DNA of 64,000 bases from positions 160,890,001 to 160,954,000 of the forward strand of contig OX597817.1 in assembly GCA_951406725.2 (NCBI GenBank). Reading direction: 5' to 3'. Position numbers and translations under genes: made by a program. Below the pieces are notes generated by a model. That model did not search any database. It was not told the DNA's origin and saw only the letters and a list, made by a program, of their open reading frames with translations. How positions within the stretch are numbered: position 1 is the first letter of the stretch; each line of letters begins with the position of its first letter. Origin of the DNA: Octopus vulgaris (lineage: Eukaryota). Positions 24,484 through 25,986 of the stretch are shown here, piece after piece.

Positions 24484-25908
24484 GCTATCTTGATGAAATC
24501 CACTCAATCACACGCCAGATTTTACCATAACGATAATTACGCGTGCGGTTCAATTGATTACATCGGACGTTATAATTCAAATGCCCCAACCAACAGCGCG
24601 CCGAACTCTCACGGAAAAACAAATACAGCATTTAGAAATAAATGCAGCATAATTATAATTAATTAATAAGGGTGAGAGAATTAGATACTAATTTAATAGT
24701 ATATTTATTCCACACCAAGTGGCCTAGTGCTACGAGAAACCTGGATTATTATAATATTTTATAACATATTATAATATTTTCACAAAATAAATATAAGAGA
24801 GTGTTCACTATATTGATCACTCTAGCACTAGTTAATCCAAGAGGTTTCAACCACGAAAAATACATGTTTCCCATGAAAGCCGGTACGACTGTTAGTTCAC
24901 ACGGACAGGGCAAATAAAAAATAACAAAAATACAGATTATCTTGGGACAATTGTTTCGCTATTAATGAATTAAATGTAATATTACTTACAGTAATCCATT
25001 TGTAGCTCTTCAGCCAAGGCTATCTTGATGAAATCCACTCAATCACACGCCAGATTTTACCATAACGATAATTACGCGTGCGGTTCAATTGATTACATCG
25101 GACGTTATAATTCAAATGCCCCAACCAACAGCGCGCCGAACTCTCACGGAAAAACAAATACAGCATTTAGAAATAAATGCAGCATAATTATAATTAATTA
25201 ATAAGGGTGAGAGAATTAGATACTAATTTAATAGTATATTTATTCCACACCAAGTGGCCTAGTGCTACGAGAAACCTGGATTATTATAATATTTTATAAC
25301 ATATTATAATATTTTCACAAAATAAATATAAGAGAGTGTTCACTATATTGATCACTCTAGCACTAGTTAATCCAAGAGGTTTCAACCACGAAAAATACAT
25401 GTTTCCCATGAAAGCCGGTACGACTGTTAGTTCACACGGACAGGGCAAATAAAAAATAACAAAAATACAGATTATCTTGGGACAATTGTTTCGCTATTAA
25501 TGAATTAAATGTAATATTACTTACAGTAATCCATTTGTAGCTCTTCAGCCAAGGCTATCTTTATGAAATCCACTCAATCACACGCCAGATTTTACCATAA
25601 CGATAATTACGCGTGCGGTTCAATTGATTACATCGGACGTTATAATTCAAATGCCCCAACCAACAGCGCGCCGAACTCTCACGGAAAAACAAATACAGCA
25701 TTTAGAAATAAATGCAGCATAATTATAATTAATTAATAAGGGTGAGAGAATTAGATACTAATTTAATAGTATATTTATTCCACACCAAGTGGCCTAGTGC
25801 TACGAGAAACCTGGATTATTATAATATTTTATAACATATTATAATATTTTCACAAAATAAATATAAGAGAGTGTTCACTATATTGATCACTCTAGCACTA
25901 GCACTAGC

Positions 25909-25986
25909 CTTGGCTGAAGAGCTACAAATGGATTACTGTAAGTAATATTACATTTAATTCATTAATAGCGAAACAATTGTCCCAAG
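25909..25986 (+). ncRNA. Type I hammerhead ribozyme (also 26441-26518, 26975-27052, 27511-27588)
   Basis: cttgg-CTGAAGA-gcta...tagc-GAAA-c(aatt)g-TC^-ccaag. Stem I cttgg/ccaag; long stem II (gcta/tagc, aatggatta/taattcatt, tgtaa/ttaca); minimal palindromic stem III; GUC cleavage after 25981. Confidence 0.88.

What the first reader, a model, noticed from the sequence alone, without database searches (positions are those of the whole stretch)
25880..25925. Array flips orientation at the 5' edge of the ribozyme, making a divergent ~3.6-kb palindrome
Seen: three minus-sense units run into plus-sense units at tc-tagcac-tagcac-tagccttggCTGAAGA (6-bp duplication, tag microhomology). The new block starts 4 nt before stem I. 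The second copy flips at the same place (~40030-40065), which argues against a single chimeric read. Established: PLE insertions often have inverted pLTRs. Inference: template switching during RT. Read-through transcription from either side would make both ribozyme-sense RNA and long dsRNA (a silencing or ADAR substrate).
Basis: partly seen in the sequence, partly recalled or inferred. Interest (0 to 1): 0.7.

Follow-up and report, generated by a model that had tools for sequence, protein, structure and literature searches.

The report
Two-armed ribozyme repeat, fixed outer ends
This back-to-back repeat is one of roughly a thousand insertions of a 535-base ribozyme-bearing repeat in an animal genome; the flip point lies anywhere, but the two outer ends are almost always one each of two fixed sites, which likely records both cut DNA strands starting to copy the same RNA and makes the copying mechanism of Penelope-type jumping genes testable.

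Summary
The flip is not tied to the ribozyme: only 7 of 138 junction ends in 69 arrays lie at its 5' edge, against 5.4 expected. The 'second copy' starts exactly after a 100-N gap as part of a 14-kb repeat, so it is the same insertion twice. What is fixed is the outside. Of 71 two-armed arrays, 69 end at unit position ~161 on one arm and ~290 on the other; a 70th has a damaged ~290 end and one is unresolved. They sit in (TA)n, some with 14-25-bp target duplications. Both arms carry the same haplotype, and their junction phases are coupled. Best reading: a non-LTR retrozyme inserted by two-ended priming by a Penelope-type enzyme, likely on one, possibly circular, RNA. Inverted arms with a one-sided tail are published for Penelope elements; this scan noted the same geometry before in other families. 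No public contig bridged the junction (inconclusive); the partner enzyme and expression are not shown.

The parts
24250..25901 (-). Left arm ('A' arm): 3.09 tandem 535-bp units; outer end at unit position 161, inner end at 115 (position 1 = first base after the predicted cleavage site)
25902..25904 (+). 3-nt junction insertion completing a 6-bp slippage duplication
25905..27871 (+). Right arm ('B' arm): 3.68 units; inner end at position 459, outer end at 288
27745..27871 (+). Unpaired ~127-bp 'tail' (unit positions ~162-288), present at one end only
   Evidence: arms pair only to 27744
25909..25986 (+). First plus-strand type I hammerhead motif: 5-bp stem I, CUGAAGA core, long stem II, GAAA, palindromic stem III; predicted cleavage between 25981 and 25982. 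Further cores at 26440, 26974, 27510 (+) and 24461, 24996, 25531 (-)
   Evidence: read from the sequence; stem II folds; positions; no Rfam hit at gathering score
24119..24249 (.). (TA)n-rich target, left
27872..27942 (.). (TA)n target, right
36679..36778 (.). 100-N scaffold gap; the sequence after it repeats 22639 onward for ~14 kb
38373..41954 (.). Second, error-rich copy of the same insertion inside the 14-kb repeat; not an independent event

Best explanation
The array is one insertion of a young, non-coding, hammerhead-bearing 535-bp repeat family whose two arms end at two fixed sites, and it was likely made by a Penelope-type reverse transcriptase-endonuclease that cut a (TA)n target on both strands and primed copying from both cut ends. 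Inferred steps: a staggered cut leaves two 3' ends. One starts on the RNA at site A (~161) and the other at site B (~290), one site per end, as an asymmetric enzyme dimer would do. Each RT runs for a variable distance through repeated units, probably round one RNA circle. The two cDNA ends are then joined head to head by end-joining with short microhomology or templated insertions. Shown: the geometry, end pairing, random junctions, shared haplotype and target duplications. Not shown: the enzyme, the dimer, ribozyme cleavage, the circle.
For: (1) All 71 two-armed arrays among 104 loci scored are minus-then-plus; 69 of 71 have one A and one B end. L047 has an error-damaged B end and L065 is unresolved. 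In loci picked by one end only, the other end was the opposite type in 21 of 21 (A-picked) and 17 of 17 (B-picked) two-armed cases. (2) Both flanks hold (TA)4 in 68 of 69. A direct repeat of 12 nt or more containing G/C touches both ends in 10 of 61, against 2.0 for shuffled flank pairs, none of 20,000 shuffles reaching 10; lengths 14-25, mostly 14-18. (3) Either arm can be the longer (A longer in 29, B in 40 of 69; extremes 6.7 kb against 67 bp). 18 of 69 fit neither fold-back geometry without an extra deletion, 11 of them by more than 60 nt. (4) Arms of one array differ at 0.0019 per site against 0.0165 between arrays (53 arrays). Units within arrays differ at 81 of 127,037 calls, and 14 of 32 arrays carry an array-wide variant seen in no other sampled array. 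(5) Junction microhomology of 2 nt or more in 21 of 49 junctions without insertion, against 18% by chance; 20 of 69 have insertions, several templated from nearby sequence. (6) In vitro, a Penelope-like protein nicks and extends both DNA strands, starts RT at two internal sites that bound the tail, prefers AT-rich DNA and is predicted to be a dimer (PMC11167929). (7) The genome holds young copies of an RT plus GIY-YIG element with a 781-aa open frame.
Against: No autonomous partner was found: the unit has no match better than E=0.02 in 50 GIY-YIG loci. In the in-vitro paper both strands use both start sites, so strict A/B pairing is not reproduced there. The tail here (~130 nt) is four times the published 30-40 nt. 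About half of the junctions (33 of 69) join nearby unit positions and a few are palindromic (L031, L112, L131), which fold-back also predicts. 51 of 69 arm-length pairs are compatible with one or other fold-back geometry. One array (L065) may be A/A. Of five single-armed loci with 9 nt or more resembling a vestigial second end, three show the opposite type (L097, L093, L076) and two the same type, AT-only (L095, L099). This window's own insertion shows no recognisable target duplication.
Confidence: 0.7

Rival explanations
1. Self-priming or fold-back: one cDNA is primed at the target, folds back on itself (or the RT switches template) and copies itself, and the second end is cut at the other fixed site. 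This is close to the first reader's 'template switching' and to the self-priming model of PMC3846280.
For: 33 of 69 junctions join positions within 60 nt, against 15.6 by permutation. Palindromic junctions at L031, L112, L131. Identical haplotype in both arms. PMC3846280 reads palindromic junctions as self-priming.
Against: It needs starts at both A and B plus a rule that always ends the copy at the other site. 18 of 69 arrays fit neither geometry without an added deletion. Only 2 of 61 unit-private variants with a mirror position are mirrored; this is weak, because the RT error rate is unknown and assembly noise contributes.
Confidence: 0.2
2. Two RNA molecules from one source locus, or classic L1-style twin priming on a linear multimer, rather than two starts in one A-B segment.
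For: Homogeneous source arrays would give homogeneous linear transcripts, so the shared haplotype alone does not prove one molecule. Phase coupling is not significant when both arms are one unit or longer (9 of 25 against 5.6, p=0.08).
Against: The L1 signature (recalled: one arm's junction at the other arm's start) is seen in only 4 of 69 (B) and 1 of 69 (A). Overall phase coupling is hard to get from two separate RNAs. This is a variant of the best explanation, not a different enzyme.
Confidence: 0.05
3. Assembly artefact from fold-back long reads.
For: The second window copy and L047/L065 are error-rich near junctions or ends.
Against: Outer flanks are mirror images in only 1 of 69 arrays (L068, 123 bp). 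Fixed, complementary A/B ends and target duplications are not made by read chimeras.
Confidence: 0.03
4. The ribozyme sets the flip point.
For: True of this one junction (459, 4 nt before stem I).
Against: 7 of 138 junction ends at positions 453-473 against 5.4 expected, and 7 of 138 at 1-20 after the cleavage site against 5.2.
Confidence: 0.02

Closest known systems
Metazoan non-LTR retrozymes (Cervera and de la Pena 2020, PMC7229834; Li, Clavereau and Pollet 2026, 10.64898/2026.07.22.740005)
   Same: Non-coding, low-GC tandem units with one type I hammerhead each, dispersed in arrays, in a genome with Penelope-like elements; strongly folded monomer (z=-5.9). Copying of a circle by a PLE RT is their hypothesis.
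   Different: The unit is 535 nt against the 150-450 bp given there. In the parts I read neither paper describes inverted two-armed insertions or fixed ends: in the preprint 'inverted' occurs once, in a reference title; in PMC7229834 'orientation' has 0 hits and 'inverted' 0 in the search listing.
Inverted pLTR plus one-sided tail of endonuclease-positive Penelope-like elements (PMC3846280; PMC8557442; PMC11167929)
   Same: Head-to-head inverted 5'-truncated copy, tail at one end only, short target duplication, AT-rich or (TA)n targets; two RT start sites bound the tail.
   Different: No ORF; arms are multimers of up to 12.6 units; tail ~130 nt; tail described there as optional, while here one-of-each pairing is near absolute. 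Published explanations are self-priming or endonuclease resolution, not paired priming.
L1 twin priming (recalled, no call)
   Same: Divergent two-armed insertion primed from both target strands and joined by microhomology.
   Different: No poly(A); both starts are fixed; the junction does not coincide with the second primer's start.

Membership tests
non-LTR retrozyme | Tandem non-coding units, each with a type I hammerhead motif | tested here: met
   7 cores at ~535-bp spacing in this array; no ORF over 101 aa in 24250-25560. The motif was read by eye; Rfam gave no hit at gathering score.
non-LTR retrozyme | Dispersed family without LTR structure | tested here: met
   2,403 exact ribozyme-core matches; 104 loci mapped. 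PBS/PPT were not searched for.
non-LTR retrozyme | Unit size 150-450 bp | tested here: not met
   535 bp; a descriptive range in PMC7229834 rather than a strict criterion.
non-LTR retrozyme | Self-cleavage of the RNA | not testable with these tools
   Stem III is a palindrome, as in minimal hammerheads that act as dimers (recalled).
non-LTR retrozyme | Expression as linear and circular RNA | tested here: inconclusive
   No listed holder is on record as RNA; only contigs were available.
Penelope-type insertion | Head-to-head inverted truncated copy | tested here: met
   71 of 71 two-armed arrays are divergent.
Penelope-type insertion | Tail at one end only | tested here: met
   69 of 71, plus one damaged B end; ~130 nt rather than 30-40.
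Penelope-type insertion | AT-rich or (TA)n target and short target duplication | tested here: met
   68 of 69 with (TA)4 on both sides; 10 of 61 with a detectable duplication against 2.0 by chance.
Penelope-type insertion | Sequence shared with the pLTR of an autonomous PLE | tested here: inconclusive
   None in 50 loci taken from 148 listed GIY-YIG matches, which came from 150 scored of 6,136 candidates.
autonomous Penelope-like element | RT plus GIY-YIG ORF | tested here: not met
   The unit has no long ORF.

The most novel reading that the evidence does not exclude
These arrays are direct genomic records of double rolling-circle reverse transcription: an asymmetric Penelope RT-endonuclease dimer loads both cut target strands on one circular ribozyme RNA, at two obligatory sites 130 nt apart, and the two RTs stop when one laps and meets the other. 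This would explain why junction phases stay coupled even when the arms differ by whole units (18 of 40 within 60 nt against 9.0 expected, p=0.0014; 12 of 22 when the A arm is longer).
Probability: 0.35. Interest if true: 0.75.

Novelty: new variant of a known kind. Interest (0 to 1): 0.5.

Why it matters
How Penelope-like elements make their inverted arms and one-sided tail is called undefined in PMC8557442, and copying of retrozyme circles into DNA is a hypothesis in PMC7229834. This young family gives a counted rule that any model must meet: one A end and one B end, a random but phase-coupled junction, and one haplotype per insertion. It also gives named RNA start sites for an in-vitro test.

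Tried and rejected
Ribozyme-edge and cleavage-site junction preference: no enrichment. Second window copy as replicate: rejected. It starts at the gap edge; the collinear flank alignments differ by 61 substitutions in 4,832 bases (1.3%) after dropping two paralogous 84-87% hits, or 136 in 5,388 with them. Two haplotypes placed in tandem is likely, but a real segmental duplication is not excluded. Rfam: no hit at gathering score; the E-value mode was not run. Public runs: no RNA holder listed. In two layings (X1, X19, X11, X3; X1, X19, X20, X11) no listed contig bridged 25901-25905; these are contigs only, X1 was about 80% read, and absence proves nothing. X3 (RNA is a guess) holds a contig running across the predicted cleavage site, which tandem DNA would also give. 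Partner search: none found; the 781-aa family shows no match to the unit. Classic L1 twin-priming signature: not seen. Arm lengths correlate (Spearman 0.31, p=0.009), but the loci were chosen in ways that bias length, so I draw nothing from it. The 60-nt coupling threshold was my choice and was not fixed beforehand; the threshold-free test gives p=5e-5 for all 69, 0.02 for the 47 with one long arm and 0.27 for the 25 with two long arms. Look-ups of earlier findings by place and by sequence returned nothing.

Full report
Observation. The window comes from a 2.8-Gb animal assembly (G000, contig C4). At 24250-27871 lies an array of a 535-bp unit: 3.09 units on the minus strand, a 3-nt insertion, then 3.68 units on the plus strand. 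Numbering the unit from the predicted hammerhead cleavage site, the left arm runs from 161 (outer) to 115 (inner) and the right arm from 459 (inner) to 288 (outer); stem I begins at 463. Each unit holds a type I hammerhead motif with a palindromic stem III. I read it from the sequence; stem II folds, and Rfam gave no hit at gathering score. The monomer folds much better than shuffles (z=-5.9, 0 of 100) and has no long ORF.

The second copy. It lies in a ~14-kb repeat (22639-36364 against 36779-49840) whose second member begins at the first base after a 100-N gap. Collinear flanks differ by about 1.3%, the left insertion flank is the same, and the junction and following unit are full of insertion errors. 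It is the same event seen twice, most likely two haplotypes placed in tandem, and I left it out of all counts.

The family. An exact 20-base ribozyme core occurs 2,403 times. The B-end-plus-TA pattern has 549 plus-strand matches, so about 1,100 insertion ends if strands are equal (my estimate). I fetched 105 loci: 45 from unit or ribozyme hits, 29 by an A end and 31 by a B end, the last all from contig C1. Two overlapping loci were joined, the unplaced contig C120 (cut at both ends) was dropped, one neighbouring fragment each was ignored in L087 and L102, and the window's array was added: 104 scored. This is not a random sample and leans to the youngest subfamily.

Junctions are random, ends are fixed. 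71 of 104 loci are two-armed, all minus-then-plus; 33 have one arm. In the 69 clean cases, 7 of 138 junction ends fall at 453-473 (5.4 expected), and phases of arms of one unit or more are uniform (n=72, Rayleigh p~0.79, KS p=0.91). So the ribozyme does not set the flip. The outer ends fall at A (~161) or B (~290), with one of each in 69 of 71. L047 has a damaged B end, and L065 has A plus a 142-189 fragment in an error-rich locus. Loci picked by one end had the opposite end in 38 of 38 two-armed cases. Single arms end at B (19), A (13) or elsewhere (1). Both flanks are (TA)n in 68 of 69, flanks are mirrored in only 1 of 69, and target duplications of 14-25 bp are seen in 10 of 61 against 2.0 by chance.

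One template. The two arms of an array are nearly identical (0.0019 differences per site against 0.0165 to other arrays; 53 arrays; L067 is an outlier with 14 differences where its alignment is broken). Units within arrays differ at 0.06% of calls, while 32 well-covered arrays fall into 21 haplotypes and 14 carry a private array-wide variant. That points to a monomer bottleneck at or shortly before insertion, as copying round a circle would give, but a linear transcript of an unsampled homogeneous array is not excluded. The two junction phases are closer than permutation predicts (33 of 69 within 60 nt against 15.6), most clearly in short arms (15 of 22 against 5.6), and also when arms differ by whole units (18 of 40 against 9.0). 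It is not significant when both arms are long (9 of 25, p=0.08).

Mechanism. The simplest model uses activities shown in vitro for a Penelope-like protein: nicking and extending both strands, two internal RT starts bounding the tail, AT-rich targets, and a predicted dimer (PMC11167929; I read parts 1-2 of 4 of the text). Two 3' ends from a staggered cut would each prime at one of the two sites, run variable distances and be joined. Microhomology of 2 nt or more is enriched (21 of 49 against 18%), and 20 of 69 junctions have insertions; the window's 6-bp duplication is one such scar. The main rival is self-priming or fold-back, proposed for Penelope inverted junctions in PMC3846280 (12 of 14 passages seen). 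It explains near-symmetric and palindromic junctions and the shared haplotype, but needs extra rules for A/B pairing and extra deletions in 18 of 69 arrays; only 2 of 61 mirrorable private variants are mirrored (weak). The genome has young RT plus GIY-YIG elements (781-aa frames, mostly 96-99% alike), but none of 50 loci examined shares sequence with the unit, so the partner is unknown.

Known and new. Non-LTR retrozymes and their proposed mobilisation by Penelope-like elements are published (PMC7229834: passages and Discussion; 10.64898/2026.07.22.740005: part 1 of 5 and passages). Inverted copies with a one-sided 30-40-bp tail and (TA)n bias are published (PMC8557442: 12 of 15 passages). Six library searches (listings and abstract starts only, except for the papers named) showed no paper describing two-armed retrozyme arrays, strict end pairing or twin priming for this class; the library lacks most subscription papers, and I read no supplements. 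Unchecked notes of this scan report the same two-fixed-ends geometry for two other repeat families in this genome and for other genomes. I had stated my reading before seeing them; they gave me the lead to PMC3846280.

dsRNA. Ribozyme-sense strands point outward, so read-through from either flank would give a hairpin with a 1.65-kb stem. Nothing here shows transcription; no RNA holder is on record and no listed contig bridged the junction, both inconclusive.

Verdict. Interest 0.5.

Noticed in passing
window 22639-49840, gap at 36679-36778: A 14-kb tandem repeat across a 100-N gap, probably a false duplication of two haplotypes; other findings in this window that count it twice should be rechecked.
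   Followed up: partly
L068:3760-3880 (G000:C1, about 192081260-192081380): Beyond the B end, 123 bp are an exact inverted copy of the left flank, as if one primer first copied target DNA.
   Followed up: no
L096:1713-1864: Two arms both stopping at unit position 4, just after the predicted cleavage site, separated by 152 bp of (TA)n; could be a cleaved monomer copied to its end, or two insertions in one microsatellite.
   Followed up: no
L071, inner end of the arm: A reiterated hexamer matching the B start site, resembling repeated slippage at RT initiation.
   Followed up: no
L166-L179 (e.g. G000:C4:116248000-116257900): A young Penelope-like family with many intact 781-aa RT plus GIY-YIG frames, partial tandems and at least one inverted arm (L177).
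   Followed up: partly
L169:362, L171:6843, L178:2537 (minus strand): Other type I hammerhead-like motifs with a similar stem III, picked up by a loose regular expression; probably other ribozyme repeat families.
   Followed up: no
G000:C120 (L066): An unplaced 6.5-kb contig made only of about 12 units of this repeat.
   Followed up: no
window 14544-15700: A C/A-rich minisatellite open in several frames (one Thr/Pro-rich, 387 aa); mucin-like exon or plain repeat.
   Followed up: no
window 9953-10227, 53152-53521: Short near-perfect palindromes (97% self-match) unrelated to this unit.
   Followed up: no
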